A DNA stretch of 64,000 bases from Candidatus Helarchaeota archaeon (GCA_019058315.1 JAHPZH010000009.1:128001-192000); one strand, 5' to 3'; positions 9,607-19,400 are shown, counted from the stretch's first letter. Notes: a model not told the origin generated them from the letters alone. Numbers and translations are program-made.

Positions 9607-10419
9607 TTAGGGTAGGTATTGAAATAATTCTTTCGATTTTTCTAATGTAATCTCAACACATTTTATAATTTCGTCTTTAGTAAAAATACCTTCTCTACCT
9701 TTTTGTATGCTACAAATATTTCCAGATTCATCTACTGTAATTGTAATGCGTGCATCCATTATGCGATCCTCTTGTTCATTTGGATCAACCAGCAATTTAT
9801 CTCCTATCTTTGCTATTGTAACTGAAACTGCTTTATTGGAAAATGGGAGGGATAACCAATCTGCTTTTTTGTATTGTTCACCTAAAACTTCCACTTTATT
9901 ATCAACAATCTCAGTCCTTGGCATTTTTGCAGAAAGTAAAGCTGCCACTCCTGCTAATGTTCCCGCATCAAACATATTTCCATCATAAGATAAAACATAT
10001 AAATCAATAAAAATGATAAAAACTTGTTCGCCAGGAATTAAGCATAATTTAGAATAATCTACTATTTCTGAATGACGAATTCCTCTGTCAACTACACGTG
10101 CAACCTCAACAGAATCTTCATTTGGTGGTCCTGGTTCGAATATAGGGGATGCAAGAGCTGTAAGCTCGGCATTAACAGTGATTACTCCCCTATCAGGAGT
10201 ATCTGGAAATGGAGGTCCAAGTGAAATCTTTACACCTGCAATAATATCTGTATTTCCAATTTTAACACGTGCTGACCCCTCAGCTTTTAGTATTACATCT
10301 GTCTCTACAGATATTTTTCGATAATCTAAAAAATTCCTTCCGTCTATTCTCTGATCCTTTTTTACTAGAGAATTTATATGAGATTTTTCAATTTCAGAAA
10401 TAATTTTAAAAGATTCCAT
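9607..10419 (-). CDS. rrp42: Exosome complex component Rrp42
   Basis: RIDGR..LDYR, AEGSARV, PFPDTPDRG, FEPGPP, ARVVDRGIR. Confidence 0.96.
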   Translation of the reverse strand: MESFKIISEIEKSHINSLVKKDQRIDGRNFLDYRKISVETDVILKAEGSARVKIGNTDIIAGVKISLGPPFPDTPDRGVITVNAELTALASPIFEPGPPNEDSVEVARVVDRGIRHSEIVDYSKLCLIPGEQVFIIFIDLYVLSYDGNMFDAGTLAGVAALLSAKMPRTEIVDNKVEVLGEQYKKADWLSLPFSNKAVSVTIAKIGDKLLVDPNEQEDRIMDARITITVDESGNICSIQKGREGIFTKDEIIKCVEITLEKSKELFQYLP

Positions 10420-11233
10420 TATATATCCTCCTCCTTTGATATTTCAGTTTCAATTTCTTTATCAAGTTGACTATATTTTCCCTTTATCGTCTGAATTTGA
10501 ATTTCATTTAATTTTTCAATTCCTTTTTCAGCAATATCCAAGGCTTTACGCATTTCATCAAATGTTATTTGACCATCAAATTGCAAAAGTGTATATGATT
10601 TAGATCGTGGCATCATTGCAATTGGTAAATCTCCCAAACCTTCTTTATCTTCAACATCCGATAAATCTAGAACTAATGTGGGTGGATCAGGATTTGCAAT
10701 TTTACCTACTGCTACACCACAAACAAGGTCGCGTAATGATATTCCAGCATCCGCTAGAGCTAAAGAAGCCGCAGTAACCGCAGCACAACGTGTACCACCA
10801 TCTGCACAAAGGACTTGGATAAAAACATCTATTATAGTTTTTGGATAATATTCAAGAAATATTGATGATTCCAAAGCTTGTCGTAAAATTAGCGAAAGTT
10901 CGACTTCCCTTCTAGATGGGGCAGGAGATTTTCTCTCATCTACTTTATTCCAAATTATTCACTCGGTATAATTTAAGCGAACGTAGCCATGCGATAAAGT
11001 ACTCGCAAAACTGCCGCATCTTGACGGGCTAAATGACGAGGGTGAACTTCACGTGGTCCATAAACTGCGACCAAAATTTTATTCTTTCCCATATTTATTA
11101 AAGCAGAACCATCTGCTTTTGTTAATAATCCCATCTCCATTGAGACTGGTCTTAATTCATCATATTTCCTATTATCTGTTCTTATTCCATCCCTAATTAA
11201 CCAATCAGCTGGGACTTGTTTAAAAAGTGCCAT
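10419..11233 (-). CDS. rrp41: Exosome catalytic subunit Rrp41, two exons: complement(join(10419..10944,10977..11233)), 260 aa
   Basis: Exon 1 ends ...AVYGPREVHPRH...YRMATFA; exon 2 continues VDERKSPAPSRREVELS...ADGGTRCA. Joined length 783 nt, in frame. Confidence 0.93.
10945..10976 (-). other. 32-nt BHB intron in rrp41 mRNA
   Basis: CTAC-GTTC-GC^T-TAAATTAT...ATAATTTG-GAAT-AA^A-GTAG: 4-bp outer helix, 4-bp central helix, two 3-nt bulges, 8-bp inner stem. Confidence 0.9.
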
Positions 11234-11288
11234 AATTATCACCTTTTTATATATTTTTTTAATTCATATCTAAATTTCGATTTTCAAT

Positions 11289-11993
11289 TTACTTCTTCTT
11301 TTTTTCATTCTCTATCAAAATTTTTACTCTATCTGTGAGGCCAGAAGTATGTGCCTCTCGTTCAATTTTCTTAATAATTTTAATCAATAATTGTTCATCT
11401 TCTAAGTTTTTTGTAGATATCCAAACCAAACCATTTTGTCCAACTACGATTTGGCTTTTTGTTGCTTCTTTAATTAAATTTATCATAGAACCCTTTCTTC
11501 CTATCAATCTAGGTATTTTCGCAGAAGCAATTTTTATTACTTTTCCTCCGCGCAATTTACCATATCCTTTACCTCTTATTGATAGAACAGGATCTCTTGT
11601 TCTGTTAAATGCTATTATCTCCCCCACAATAATTTGTCCGATATCAAAATAATTTTTGATATTATCTTTTAAAGGATTAAATGCTCGGTCTATTACATTT
11701 GTAACATGTAAGGAAGCTGTATATGGAGAATCAATATCAACTTTCCAGCTAACGATGGATGTATTTATAATTTTTCCTATAACAACATCACCGACCTTAG
11801 GTACATAAGGTCCACTGAAGGGAACTACATATACATTATTATTTCCTCTAATCTCTGAAAACCCAATAATAGATGCATAAAGTTTATCCTCTTCCTTGTA
11901 TGTTCCAAATCCTGCTCTATACTTAGAACCTTCTACAATTAATTCGCCTGGCACTACAATACGATGCCGTTCAAAACTATCTCCATTTGACAA
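11289..11993 (-). CDS. rrp4: Exosome cap protein Rrp4 (S1+KH)
   Basis: IVVPGE, YVPKVGDVVIG, KIPRLIGRKGSMI, GQNGLVWI, AHTSGLTDR. Confidence 0.96.
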   Translation of the reverse strand: MSNGDSFERHRIVVPGELIVEGSKYRAGFGTYKEEDKLYASIIGFSEIRGNNNVYVVPFSGPYVPKVGDVVIGKIINTSIVSWKVDIDSPYTASLHVTNVIDRAFNPLKDNIKNYFDIGQIIVGEIIAFNRTRDPVLSIRGKGYGKLRGGKVIKIASAKIPRLIGRKGSMINLIKEATKSQIVVGQNGLVWISTKNLEDEQLLIKIIKKIEREAHTSGLTDRVKILIENEKKKK

Positions 11994-18149: not shown

Positions 18150-18306
18150 GAGTTATATTTTATTATCTTTAAATTTAAAAATTACGTAATTACGCGCTAT
18201 AAATAAAAAAACTCTGAAATGCAAAAAAAGAATTTTGCAAAAAACATTTAAAATCATATTAATTGGGAAATATAAATTAAAAATGAAAAGTCCAGAGGTA
18301 AGTTTT

Positions 18307-19400
18307 ATGGTAAAGACTGGAATAATATATCATGAAGATTATTTAAAACATGATACTGGAGATCATGTTGAAAATAAAAAAAGATTGATTGCCACTTTGG
18401 ATTTATTTAATGAATACAAAATTTTTGAGCATCCTAATATCATTAAGATTTCCCCAAATCCAGCATCTATTAAGGAAATTCAAAGAGTTCATAAAGCATT
18501 TTATATAGAAAAAGTCCGGGAAAAATGTTTAAGTGGTGGGGGCTGGCTTGATGCTGATACAATTGTCTCTCCAGATAGCTACAATGTTGCATTATTAGCT
18601 GCTGGAGGAGCAATACAAGCAGGTGAGATGGCTGTAAAAGGTAAAATTGACAATGCTTTTTGTTTAATACGTCCTCCAGGACATCATGCCGGACCAGGGG
18701 TTGCTAGAGGATTTTGTGTATTTAATAATATTGCCATTGTTGCAAAATCTTTAATTGCGAGGTTTGAAGAGGTCAATAAAGTCTTAATATTTGACCACGA
18801 TGCACATTAAAAAAGAAATTTTCTTTTTTAAGCATATACGCAGGTAATGGAACCTCGCAAATTCTATATAACGATCCAAATGTGCTATTATTTGATTTTC
18901 ACCAACATCCGCGAACACTCTATCCTGGAACAGGTTATATAGATGAAATAGGTGAGGAAGAAGGAAAGGGATATAATATAAATTTACCTATGGTTCCCCG
19001 TGCTGGTGATGCTCAATATCTAGAAGTTATTGATGAATTATTCATTCCAATTATTAATCAATTTAAACCTGATATTGTTCTAGTTTCAGCAGGATTTGAT
19101 ACTCATTTTTCTGATCCCATTACACAACTCAATATAACAATTCAAGGATATGGAGAAATCGTTAAAAAAATAAAAAAAGAGGCAAAAAAAGTCTGTGCTG
19201 GGAAAATTATAATTATGCTTGAGGGTGGATATGATTTAAAAGCACTATCTCAGGGAATTCTAACTGAAATATCTGTACTTGGAGATTTAGGTATTGAATT
19301 TATAGAAAATCCTCCTAAAATTGAAGAAGCTATAGTAGATTACAATAGAAAAATGATAGATAAATTAAAAGAAGTTTTAGGTGCTTATTGGAAATTTTAA
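18307..19400 (+). CDS. HDAC/AcuC-family Zn-dependent deacetylase, two exons: join(18307..18805,18838..19400), 353 aa
   Basis: HVENKKRL, RPPGHHA, GFCVFNN, spliced DHDAHAGNGT, YPGTG, SAGFD, LEGGY. Joined length 1062 nt; GAGGT before ATG 18307. Confidence 0.92.
18806..18837 (+). other. 32-nt BHB intron in deacetylase mRNA
   Basis: CG-ATGC-AC^A-TTAAAAAAGAA...TTCTTTTTTAA-GCAT-AT^A-CG: perfect 4-bp central helix, two 3-nt bulges, 11-bp inner stem. Confidence 0.9.

What the first reader, a model, noticed from the sequence alone, without database searches (positions are those of the whole stretch)
10945..10976. BHB intron splits the exosome subunit rrp41 inside the conserved superoperon
Minus strand reads CTAC GTTC GC^T TAAATTAT ACCGAGTGA ATAATTTG GAAT AA^A GTAG. 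Splicing gives TTC GCA GTA GAT GAG AGA, i.e. YRMATFAVDERKSPAPSRRE, the expected Rrp41 segment with no indel. The insert has TAA in the exon-1 frame and a later TGA in the exon-2 frame, so neither a single frameshift nor a 1-nt sequencing error can rescue the gene. Both exons look undecayed and sit between rrp4 and rrp42. Splicing transiently cuts the polycistronic mRNA, so it could also affect downstream genes (inference).
Basis: partly seen in the sequence, partly recalled or inferred. Interest (0 to 1): 0.92.

Follow-up and report, generated by a model that had tools for sequence, protein, structure and literature searches.

The report
tRNA-type intron splitting Asgard rrp41
The gene for the catalytic exosome subunit Rrp41 of this Asgard (Helarchaeota-related) archaeon is interrupted by a 32-base intron shaped like a tRNA intron, kept at the same codon in a clade of relatives, so its mRNA almost certainly has to be spliced, which the papers I could search confirm for only one other archaeal protein gene (cbf5).

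Summary
Observation confirmed and interpretation supported. On the minus strand, rrp41 is broken at window 10945-10976 by a 32-nt insert. The insert and its flanks form a strict helix-bulge-helix-bulge-helix motif: 4-bp outer helix, 3-nt bulge, 4-bp central helix, 3-nt bulge, 8-bp inner hairpin.

- **Splice product.** Cutting after the second base of each bulge gives a 260-aa Rrp41. It aligns without gaps to the intronless ortholog of the nearest genome (66.7% identity).
- **Not an artefact.** Contigs from other metagenome studies carry the insert.
- **Conserved position.** Seven related metagenomic contigs, six of them different in sequence, have an insert of 28-32 nt at the same codon. None is a multiple of 3.
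- **Covariation.** Primary sequences differ but geometry is the same: 7 of 8 inner-helix pairs show compensatory changes.
- **Selection.** Both exons are under strong purifying selection (dN/dS about 0.03-0.3 at dS about 0.4 to over 2).
- **One origin.** Intron-bearing genes form one clade, sister to intronless relatives.
- **Machinery and context.** The genome encodes two EndA paralogs and RtcB. EF-2 and an HDAC-family gene carry similar inserts.

No RNA data could be obtained, so splicing itself is inferred. This scan has noted the same phenomenon in other Asgard genomes. In the literature I could search, only the crenarchaeal cbf5 intron is confirmed.

The parts
10977..11233 (-). rrp41 exon 1: 85 codons plus the first two bases (GC) of the junction codon
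   Evidence: Translation. Pfam RNase_PH profile positions 1-59. The start at ATG 11233 is inferred from relatives that begin MALF.
10945..10976 (-). 32-nt BHB intron, not a multiple of 3. It carries TAA in the exon-1 frame and TGA in the exon-2 frame.
   Evidence: The position is conserved in 7 related contigs, with covariation.
10419..10944 (-). rrp41 exon 2: the last base (A) of the junction codon, 174 codons and the stop
   Evidence: Translation. Pfam RNase_PH 64-129 plus RNase_PH_C. Aligns to residues 86-242 of the Rrp41 chain 3l7z_B.
10983..10986 (-). 5' strand of the outer helix (CTAC, exonic)
   Evidence: Pairs with 10940-10943. Invariant in 8 of 8 sequences.
10979..10982 (-). 5' strand of the 4-bp central helix (GTTC, exonic)
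   Evidence: Pairs with 10947-10950. 100% of cells are paired, and pair 1 occurs as GU, AU or GC.
10976..10978 (-). 5' bulge GCT. The predicted cut lies between 10977 and 10976.
   Evidence: Geometry. The cut position follows the canonical BHB rule (established knowledge).
10951..10975 (-). inner hairpin: 8-bp helix (10968-10975 with 10951-10958) and a 9-nt loop
   Evidence: 7 of 8 pairs show compensatory double changes across relatives.
10947..10950 (-). 3' strand of the central helix (GAAT, intronic)
10944..10946 (-). 3' bulge AAA. The predicted cut lies between 10945 and 10944.
   Evidence: The middle base varies among relatives (A, T or G).
10940..10943 (-). 3' strand of the outer helix (GTAG, exonic)
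11289..11993 (-). rrp4, the upstream gene of the operon
   Evidence: Pfam ECR1_N_2, RRP4_S1 and KH_6.
9607..10419 (-). rrp42, the downstream gene. Its ATG overlaps the rrp41 stop (TAATG).
   Evidence: Pfam RNase_PH plus RNase_PH_C. Sequence.

Best explanation
Window 10945-10976 (minus strand) is a genuine archaeal bulge-helix-bulge intron inside the coding sequence of rrp41, the only Rrp41 ortholog of this Asgard (Helarchaeota-related) genome.

Proposed mechanism:
1. The operon transcript (rrp4-rrp41-rrp42 and neighbours) folds locally into helix / 3-nt bulge / 4-bp helix / 3-nt bulge / hairpin. This copies the geometry of an intron-bearing tRNA anticodon arm.
2. The splicing endonuclease EndA, here probably an alpha-beta heteromer, cuts after the second base of each bulge.
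3. The RtcB ligase joins the exons (...TTCGC|AGTAG...). This creates a GCA (Ala) codon and restores the frame.
4. The 32-nt intron is released, probably as a circle.

Only spliced mRNA can give full-length Rrp41 of 260 aa. Unspliced mRNA gives an 86-aa fragment that lacks the part aligning to residues 86-242 of solved Rrp41.

Shown here: the motif, exact restoration of the protein, conservation with covariation, purifying selection, one origin in a clade, and presence of the enzymes.

Inferred: the cleavage and ligation themselves, the enzymes responsible, circularisation, and any regulatory role.
For: 1. Geometry and product. The spliced product is 260 aa and aligns gap-free to intronless orthologs. 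Pfam RNase_PH runs 1-59 in exon 1 and 64-129 in exon 2.
2. Real DNA. Contigs from other metagenome studies keep the insert.
3. Conservation.
   - All database homologs at 76% identity or more to exon 2 are truncated ORFs.
   - The seven contigs I could fetch, six different in sequence since L036 equals L035 over this region, have a 28-32-nt insert at the identical codon in the same operon.
4. Covariation.
   - 96.9% of cells are paired, against 82.5% in shuffles and 29-41% when the partners are slid.
   - 7 of 8 inner-helix pairs have changes on both sides.
   - The central helix varies only through standard pairs.
   - RNAalifold independently finds the outer and inner helices.
5. Selection between intron-bearing lineages:
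   - exon 1: omega 0.06-0.30
   - exon 2: omega 0.03-0.13
   - 22 codons just after the junction, upstream of the first ATG/GTG/TTG in that frame (TTG at 10874): omega 0 to 0.18
   - dS 0.4 to over 2 in most comparisons
6. Insert length mod 3 is 1 in four sequences and 2 in four. One conserved frameshift cannot explain them.
7. The intron-bearing genes form one clade (SH-aLRT 100) next to intronless genes, so one gain is enough.
8. Machinery. There are two EndA paralogs over the Pfam cut-off and one RtcB. Asgard EndA is reported as the (alpha-beta)2 type with the broad-specificity L1 loop (PMC5829648).
9. No intact second copy. The only other hit in the genome is a 29%-identical paralog, and relatives with intact rrp41 mostly show a similar second weak hit.
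10. Same genome. EF-2 and an HDAC-family gene have BHB-bounded inserts of 31 and 32 nt, with Pfam domains continuous across the junction.
Against: There is no RNA-level evidence. No RNA run was listed for this organism, and no spliced-form protein of 76% identity or more is in the protein database. Excision and ligation are therefore inferred.

Thermodynamic folding of the single sequence is not better than shuffles (z = -0.51). Neither that fold nor RNAalifold recovers the 4-bp central helix. This is usual for a helix held by the enzyme, but it means the central helix rests on geometry and on one-sided substitutions only.

The outer helix is invariant because it is coding sequence, so it says nothing either way. 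The eight sequences are one clade, so the covariation events are fewer than the cell counts suggest (about 3-4 independent helix versions).
Confidence: 0.88

Rival explanations
1. rrp41 is a pseudogene inactivated by a 32-nt insertion, and the BHB-like fold is coincidence.
For: The frame is broken and stops occur in both frames inside the insert. Folding of the single sequence is not significant.
Against: - The interruption is kept at the same codon in 7 related contigs whose synonymous sites are near saturation.
- Both exons have dN/dS of 0.03-0.3 and no further frameshifts or stops.
- The helices covary.
- There is no intact second rrp41 in the genome.
- The motif frequency is about 5e-7 per site pair.
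Confidence: 0.02
2. This is a split gene. Exon 1 and exon 2 are translated as two separate polypeptides that assemble into a functional Rrp41, with no splicing.
For: Gene callers annotate two ORFs in all relatives. Split genes exist in some archaea (established knowledge, for example Nanoarchaeum).
Against: - The first possible start codon in the exon-2 frame is TTG at 10874, 23 codons after the junction.
- Those codons (VDERKSPAPSRRE...) are under strong purifying selection (omega 0 to 0.18).
- A split gene does not need a conserved BHB with covarying helices, nor an insert whose canonical cut sites restore the residue count exactly.
Confidence: 0.04
3. Translational recoding, either a programmed frameshift or ribosomal bypass of the insert, joins the two frames.
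For: Crenarchaeal cbf5 introns were at first confused with translational frameshifting (PMC2738675).
Against: - The exon-1 frame stops one base into the insert, and the exon-2 frame has TGA inside it.
- The required shift differs among relatives: length mod 3 is 1 in four and 2 in four.
- No matched take-off and landing codons are evident (my reading of the sequence).
- What is conserved is the RNA structure, not the insert sequence.
Confidence: 0.02
4. It is an assembly or sequencing artefact.
For: The genome is a metagenome-assembled genome with 6.6% estimated contamination.
Against: Contigs from other studies contain the insert without gaps. So do seven contigs from other JGI and ENA samples.
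Confidence: 0.01

Closest known systems
BHB intron in the cbf5 pre-mRNA of Crenarchaeota (Desulfurococcales, Sulfolobales; Watanabe 2002, Yoshinari 2006, Yokobori 2009 = PMC2738675)
   Same: A short ORF-less intron (16-44 bp there, 28-32 nt here) lies inside a protein-coding sequence. It is bounded by a BHB-type motif, occurs in a lineage with heteromeric EndA, must be removed to give the functional protein, and is gained within a clade and absent from neighbours.
   Different: The host gene differs (rrp41, an RNase PH-type exosome subunit, not the pseudouridine synthase cbf5). The phylum differs (Asgard, Helarchaeota-related). The motif here is a strict canonical hBHBh'. The gene lies inside a tightly packed operon with an overlapping downstream start. 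Splicing of cbf5 was shown experimentally; here it is inferred.
Archaeal tRNA introns, including the intron-rich tRNA genes of Asgard archaea (PMC11291895; bioRxiv 10.64898/2026.10.13.758758)
   Same: The geometry is the same. The outer helix stands for the anticodon stem, the 4-bp helix forms between exon and intron, there are two 3-nt bulges, and the cuts fall after the second bulge base. The size class is the same and the same enzymes are presumed. ARAGORN finds introns in 18 of 42 tRNAs of this genome.
   Different: The substrate is an mRNA, so no mature tRNA body can help recognition. The exon sides of the helices are constrained by codons. The product is a reading frame, not a folded RNA.
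Unconventional cytoplasmic splicing of HAC1/XBP1 mRNA (IRE1 endonuclease plus tRNA ligase or RtcB; established knowledge)
   Same: A protein endonuclease and a tRNA-type ligase remove a very short intron from an mRNA (26 nt in XBP1). Removal changes the reading frame, and only the spliced mRNA gives the active protein.
   Different: IRE1 is unrelated to EndA and recognises twin stem-loops, not a BHB. That system is stress-regulated, and no regulation is shown here. This is a functional analogy only, not family membership.

Membership tests
Archaeal BHB intron (EndA substrate) | Two 3-nt bulges on opposite strands, separated by a 4-bp helix | tested here: met
   Bulges GCT and AAA lie either side of GTTC/GAAT. 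The same spacing holds in 8 of 8 related sequences, and 100% of central-helix cells are paired.
Archaeal BHB intron (EndA substrate) | Flanking helices on both sides (h and h') | tested here: met
   The outer helix is 4 bp and invariant. The inner helix is 8 bp, with compensatory changes at 7 of 8 pairs.
Archaeal BHB intron (EndA substrate) | Canonical cuts (after the second base of each bulge) give the functional product | tested here: met
   The spliced CDS is 783 nt. It aligns to orthologs with 0 gaps at the junction, and the junction codon GCA (Ala) equals that of the nearest intronless ortholog.
Archaeal BHB intron (EndA substrate) | Splicing endonuclease and RNA ligase encoded in the genome | tested here: met
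   PF01974 hits twice over the cut-off (C12, C1) and PF01139 RtcB once (C5). The ORFs are 184 aa and 201 aa. The alpha and beta roles are my reading of the sequences.
Archaeal BHB intron (EndA substrate) | Excised intron and ligated exons observed in RNA, or cleavage by EndA in vitro | not testable with these tools
   No RNA run was listed.
cbf5 pre-mRNA intron of Crenarchaeota | Host gene is cbf5, and the intron is homologous by position | tested here: not met
   The host gene is rrp41 (Pfam RNase_PH and RNase_PH_C; PDB Rrp41 chains). It is the same kind of intron but not the same intron.
cbf5 pre-mRNA intron of Crenarchaeota | Short ORF-less intron in a CDS, in a lineage with heteromeric EndA | tested here: met
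   The inserts are 28-32 nt. There are two EndA paralogs. The (alpha-beta)2 type is reported for Asgard (PMC5829648).
Pseudogene | Relaxed selection (omega near 1) and accumulating frameshifts or stops | tested here: not met
   Omega is 0.03-0.30 at dS up to over 2, with no further disruptions in 8 sequences.
Programmed frameshift or translational bypass | The same shift and a conserved recoding signal in relatives | tested here: not met
   Length mod 3 is 1 in four sequences and 2 in four. The insert sequence is not conserved, only its structure.
Self-splicing group I or group II intron | A ribozyme core of hundreds of nucleotides | tested here: not met
   The insert is 32 nt, and the window has no Rfam match.

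The most novel reading that the evidence does not exclude
The rrp41 intron is one element of a genome-wide, EndA/RtcB-dependent mRNA-splicing layer in Asgard archaea that also touches EF-2 and an HDAC-family enzyme. In this reading it acts as a gate. Production of the catalytic exosome subunit, and through the overlapping stop and start also of Rrp42, would depend on spare capacity of the tRNA-splicing machinery. RNA decay would thus be coupled to tRNA and rRNA maturation, as an archaeal counterpart of regulated XBP1/HAC1 splicing.
Probability: 0.15. Interest if true: 0.88.

Novelty: new member of a known kind. Interest (0 to 1): 0.72.

Why it matters
**State of the literature.** In the papers I could search, splicing of an archaeal protein-coding transcript by the tRNA-splicing endonuclease is confirmed for a single gene, crenarchaeal cbf5. 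PMC2738675 says so, and a 2025 paper on EndA (PMC12397907) still cites only those studies.

**What this adds.** This is a well-supported second kind of host gene. [quoted passage not shown] The comparative evidence (conserved position, covariation, purifying selection) does not depend on the motif alone.

**Consequences.**
- Gene callers systematically mis-annotate such genes as two fragments. All relatives in the databases are split in this way.
- Essential information-processing genes in these organisms depend on EndA and RtcB.
- Enzyme-catalysed mRNA splicing that shifts the frame existed in the archaeal lineage nearest to eukaryotes.
- It offers a concrete, short substrate for testing Asgard EndA specificity.

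Tried and rejected
- **RNA evidence.** No RNA holder was listed for this stretch. No spliced-length protein of 76% identity or more is in the protein database. Neither result is evidence either way.
- **Single-sequence folding.** The MFE is -10.1 kcal/mol with z = -0.51, and the fold does not recover the BHB. It is uninformative for a protein-held 4-bp helix.
- **Genome-wide BHB scan with an ORF-fusion filter**.
  - The loose motif is mostly noise: 350 ORF-fusing hits for inserts of 11-50 nt.
  - The fusing fraction is about 0.4% at weak helices and about 0.9% at strong ones, so no count of mRNA introns can be given.
  - A decoy-pairing control was unusable, because mirror repeats and A-runs are commoner than inverted repeats in this AT-rich genome.
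- **C3:778100-778128.** This candidate has the strongest helices and lies upstream of a carboxylesterase. Its exon 1 has no Pfam match, so it is not confirmed.
- **Homologs of 166-172 aa at 57-59% identity.** They looked like further split genes. The one contig I could fetch runs straight through the site with no insert, so it is a contig-end or internal-Met gene call, and the other proteins start at the same Met. One look-up found no record, and one relative had no DNA available.
- **Repeated or mobile element.** The intron has no second copy in the genome.
- **Rfam and ARAGORN.** Neither found anything in the window.
- **Strain-level variants.** In contigs of near-identical strains there are 9 synonymous and 10 conservative non-synonymous changes. 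The trend is the same, but the numbers are too small to weigh.

Full report
**1. The observation.**
Window coordinates of the elements are:
- outer helix CTAC (10986-10983) with GTAG (10943-10940)
- central helix GTTC (10982-10979) with GAAT (10950-10947)
- 5' bulge GCT (10978-10976) and 3' bulge AAA (10946-10944)
- 8-bp inner helix (10975-10968 with 10958-10951) closed by a 9-nt loop

This is the strict helix-bulge-helix-bulge-helix arrangement of archaeal introns. By established knowledge of tRNA introns at position 37/38, it has the same register as an intron-bearing anticodon arm. The cut after the second base of each bulge defines a 32-nt intron, 10945-10976.

The ORF list shows an 89-aa ORF ending ...YRMATFA* at a TAA one base into the insert. 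The exon-2 frame is open only from five codons upstream of the junction (open frame 179 aa). No single frameshift can join them.

Exon 1 matches Pfam RNase_PH profile positions 1-59. Exon 2 matches positions 64-129 plus RNase_PH_C.

**2. The spliced product.**
Joining 11233-10977 to 10944-10419 gives 783 nt, or 260 aa. It aligns to the ortholog of the nearest genome over 258 residues at 66.7% identity with no gap. In a multiple alignment with 17 orthologs there is no indel at the junction.

The junction codon GC|A (Ala) is the same codon as in the nearest intronless ortholog. Exon 2 aligns to residues 86-242 of the solved Rrp41 chain 3l7z_B. From my own knowledge, that part of S. solfataricus Rrp41 holds the phosphate-binding arginines and the catalytic aspartate. 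An exon-1 fragment alone would then be inactive.

**3. Not an artefact, and not chance.**
Contigs of other public metagenome runs were laid on the gene:
- One from another study spans 10624-11242 with no gap. Its single difference inside the intron lies in the loop.
- A second spans 10700-11005 without a gap, with 29 bases beyond the intron's 5' end.
- A third covers 10965-11187 and is identical.

In my own scan of the 5.79-Mb genome, a motif at least as strict as this one occurs at about 5e-7 per candidate pair of cut sites. Here the pair is dictated independently by the protein alignment.

**4. Who has it.**
The genome is 5.79 Mb in 12 contigs, with about 30% GC in this window. Its nearest species representative is a MAG labelled Candidatus Helarchaeota.

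All 40 relatives sampled, from the same family up to the same class, have a match to Rrp41. Every one I inspected has an uninterrupted gene.

In the large protein database, every homolog with 76-89% identity to exon 2 is a truncated ORF of 151-201 aa. Homologs at 70% identity or less that span both domains are mostly full length.

I could fetch seven contigs for the truncated proteins, from JGI and ENA sediment samples. Two of them, L035 and L036, are identical over this region. All carry rrp41 as two ORFs. The four contigs that reach beyond rrp42 continue with L37Ae and Pcc1, and two also show SBDS and rrp4 upstream. All have an insert at exactly the same codon.

The inserts are 28, 28, 28, 29, 29, 31, 32 and 32 nt, counting the window. 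None is a multiple of three. Length mod 3 is 1 in four sequences and 2 in four.

**5. Structure is conserved, sequence is not.**
In an alignment of the eight BHB regions (A1), counting on the structure I named gives the following:
- 96.9% of cells are standard pairs, against 82.5% after shuffling (0 of 500 shuffles reach it).
- Only 29-41% are paired when the 3' partners are slid by 1-3 columns.
- Seven of the eight inner-helix pairs have changes on both sides that keep the pair.
- Pair 1 of the central helix occurs as G.U, A-U and G-C, and pair 4 as C-G and U.G.
- The outer helix never varies because it is coding sequence, so it is uninformative.

RNAalifold on the same alignment independently predicts the outer and inner helices, with 7 covarying pairs. 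It does not predict the 4-bp central helix. The single-sequence fold does not either, and I do not count that against the motif.

The sequences come from one clade, so the independent events are fewer than the cells. By eye there are three or four distinct versions of the helix.

**6. The gene is alive.**
Between intron-bearing lineages, synonymous divergence is mostly 0.4 to over 2. dN/dS values are:
- 0.06-0.30 for the last 70 codons of exon 1
- 0.03-0.13 for the first 140 codons of exon 2
- 0 to 0.18 for the 22 codons just after the junction, which lie upstream of the first possible start codon in that frame (TTG at 10874)

That last figure argues against a separately translated exon-2 protein.

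The genome has no second rrp41. The only other hit is a 29%-identical RNase PH paralog, and most relatives with an intact rrp41 show a similar second weak hit.

**7. History.**
In a maximum-likelihood tree of 38 Rrp41 proteins, the eight intron-bearing genes form one group (SH-aLRT 100). This group sits next to the intronless genes of the nearest genome and one database protein, so one change of state suffices.

In the intronless relatives of the same family and order, the exon flanks already pair as CTAC with GTAG or GTGG, 4 of 4 pairs in four of the six examined. The site was thus pre-adapted to provide the outer helix. This is an observation, not evidence for a mechanism of gain.

The intron has no other copy in the genome.

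**8. Machinery and context.**
- The genome encodes two EndA paralogs over the Pfam cut-off and one RtcB.
- The 184-aa paralog appears to keep the catalytic Tyr/His/Lys positions, and the 201-aa one appears to lack the His. This is my reading of the sequences.
- That pattern fits the (alpha-beta)2 enzyme with the L1 loop reported for Asgard archaea (PMC5829648).
- ARAGORN finds introns in 18 of the 42 tRNA genes it detects.
- Leads from earlier notes of this scan were checked. EF-2 has a 31-nt BHB-bounded insert splitting DTPGH|VD (G000 C6:81229-81259), with GTP_EFTU profile 2-79 before it and 82-151 after it.
- An HDAC-family gene in this window has a 32-nt insert at 18806-18837, with Hist_deacetyl 1-151 before and 154-295 after. 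Its outer helix is only 2 bp.
- An HTH-CBS gene is only partly supported, and a carboxylesterase candidate is not confirmed.
- My genome-wide scan cannot give a reliable total, because the loose motif is dominated by chance hits at gene boundaries.

**9. Mechanism and rivals.**
The best explanation is EndA cleavage at the two bulges followed by RtcB ligation. This gives the only mRNA from which full-length Rrp41 can be made.

The rivals are contradicted as follows:
- Pseudogene: contradicted by selection and covariation.
- Split gene: contradicted by the conserved codons that have no start codon upstream of them, and it leaves the conserved BHB unexplained.
- Recoding: contradicted by the two different frame offsets among relatives and the stops in both frames.
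- Artefact: contradicted by the independent contigs.

The rrp41 stop overlaps the rrp42 start (TAATG), and the operon genes are closely spaced. Cleavage must therefore transiently sever a polycistronic transcript, and unspliced mRNA might also lower rrp42 translation. This is inference.

**10. Comparison with what is known.**
The closest known case is the cbf5 pre-mRNA intron of Crenarchaeota. It is 16-44 bp, has BHB-type borders, and occurs in lineages with heteromeric EndA. PMC2738675 states that no archaeal pre-mRNA splicing had been confirmed for genes other than cbf5. A 2025 paper on EndA still cites only those studies (PMC12397907).

Intron-rich tRNA genes of Asgard archaea are published (PMC11291895; bioRxiv 10.64898/2026.10.13.758758). 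My searches found no paper describing BHB introns in Asgard protein-coding genes. The library is incomplete, so this is not proof of absence.

Earlier reports of this scan describe the same phenomenon in other Asgard genomes (EF-2, EF-1alpha, TFS). One of them reports RNA-derived contigs that lack the intron. I did not test those reports.

I therefore class this as a new member of a known kind: the same mechanism as cbf5, in a new host gene and a new phylum.

**11. Verdict.**
Confidence that this is a spliced BHB intron is 0.88. What is missing is direct RNA or biochemical evidence.

Noticed in passing
window 18806-18837 (+): An HDAC-family gene (ORFs 18235-18810 and 18882-19400) is split by a 32-nt insert with an ATGC/GCAT central helix, 3-nt bulges, a long A/T hairpin and only a 2-bp outer helix. 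Pfam Hist_deacetyl runs 1-151 before it and 154-295 after it.
   Followed up: partly
L108:2430-2460 (-) = G000 C6:81229-81259: EF-2 is split at DTPGH|VD by a 31-nt insert with strict BHB geometry (outer helix 4 bp, inner helix 10 bp). GTP_EFTU profile runs 2-79 before it and 82-151 after it.
   Followed up: partly
L109:470-502 (+) = G000 C5:499169-499201: An HTH_3-CBS regulator carries a 33-nt BHB-bounded insert with an in-frame stop, inside the helix-turn-helix (GVSQSLIAR|IETG). Exon 1 matches HTH_3 profile 1-28, and exon 2 matches only CBS.
   Followed up: partly
L110:401-429 (+) = G000 C3:778100-778128: This is the strongest BHB-like motif in my scan (outer helix 9 bp, inner helix 6 bp). 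It lies just upstream of a carboxylesterase ORF that begins at profile position 114. The upstream frame has no Pfam match, so the true boundaries, or a second break, remain unexplained.
   Followed up: partly
L002-L005, at the codons for ATF[AS]V of rrp41: In intronless relatives of the same family and order, the exon flanks already pair as CTAC with GTAG or GTGG (4 of 4). The outer helix of the BHB therefore pre-exists as a by-product of coding.
   Followed up: no
window 10417-10421 (-): The rrp41 stop and the rrp42 start overlap (TAATG), preceded by a GGAGGAGGA run. Translational coupling of rrp42 to rrp41 is plausible.
   Followed up: no
window 1-64000; G000 as a whole: ARAGORN and Rfam find no tRNA in the window, although earlier notes report multi-intron tRNAs there. 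Genome-wide, ARAGORN finds 26 tRNAs without its intron mode and 42 with it, 18 of them intron-bearing. Many tRNA genes are probably hidden by introns.
   Followed up: no
G000 C3:499601-500308 (-): A second RNase PH-domain gene is 29% identical to Rrp41, and most relatives show a similar second weak match. Its role was not examined.
   Followed up: no
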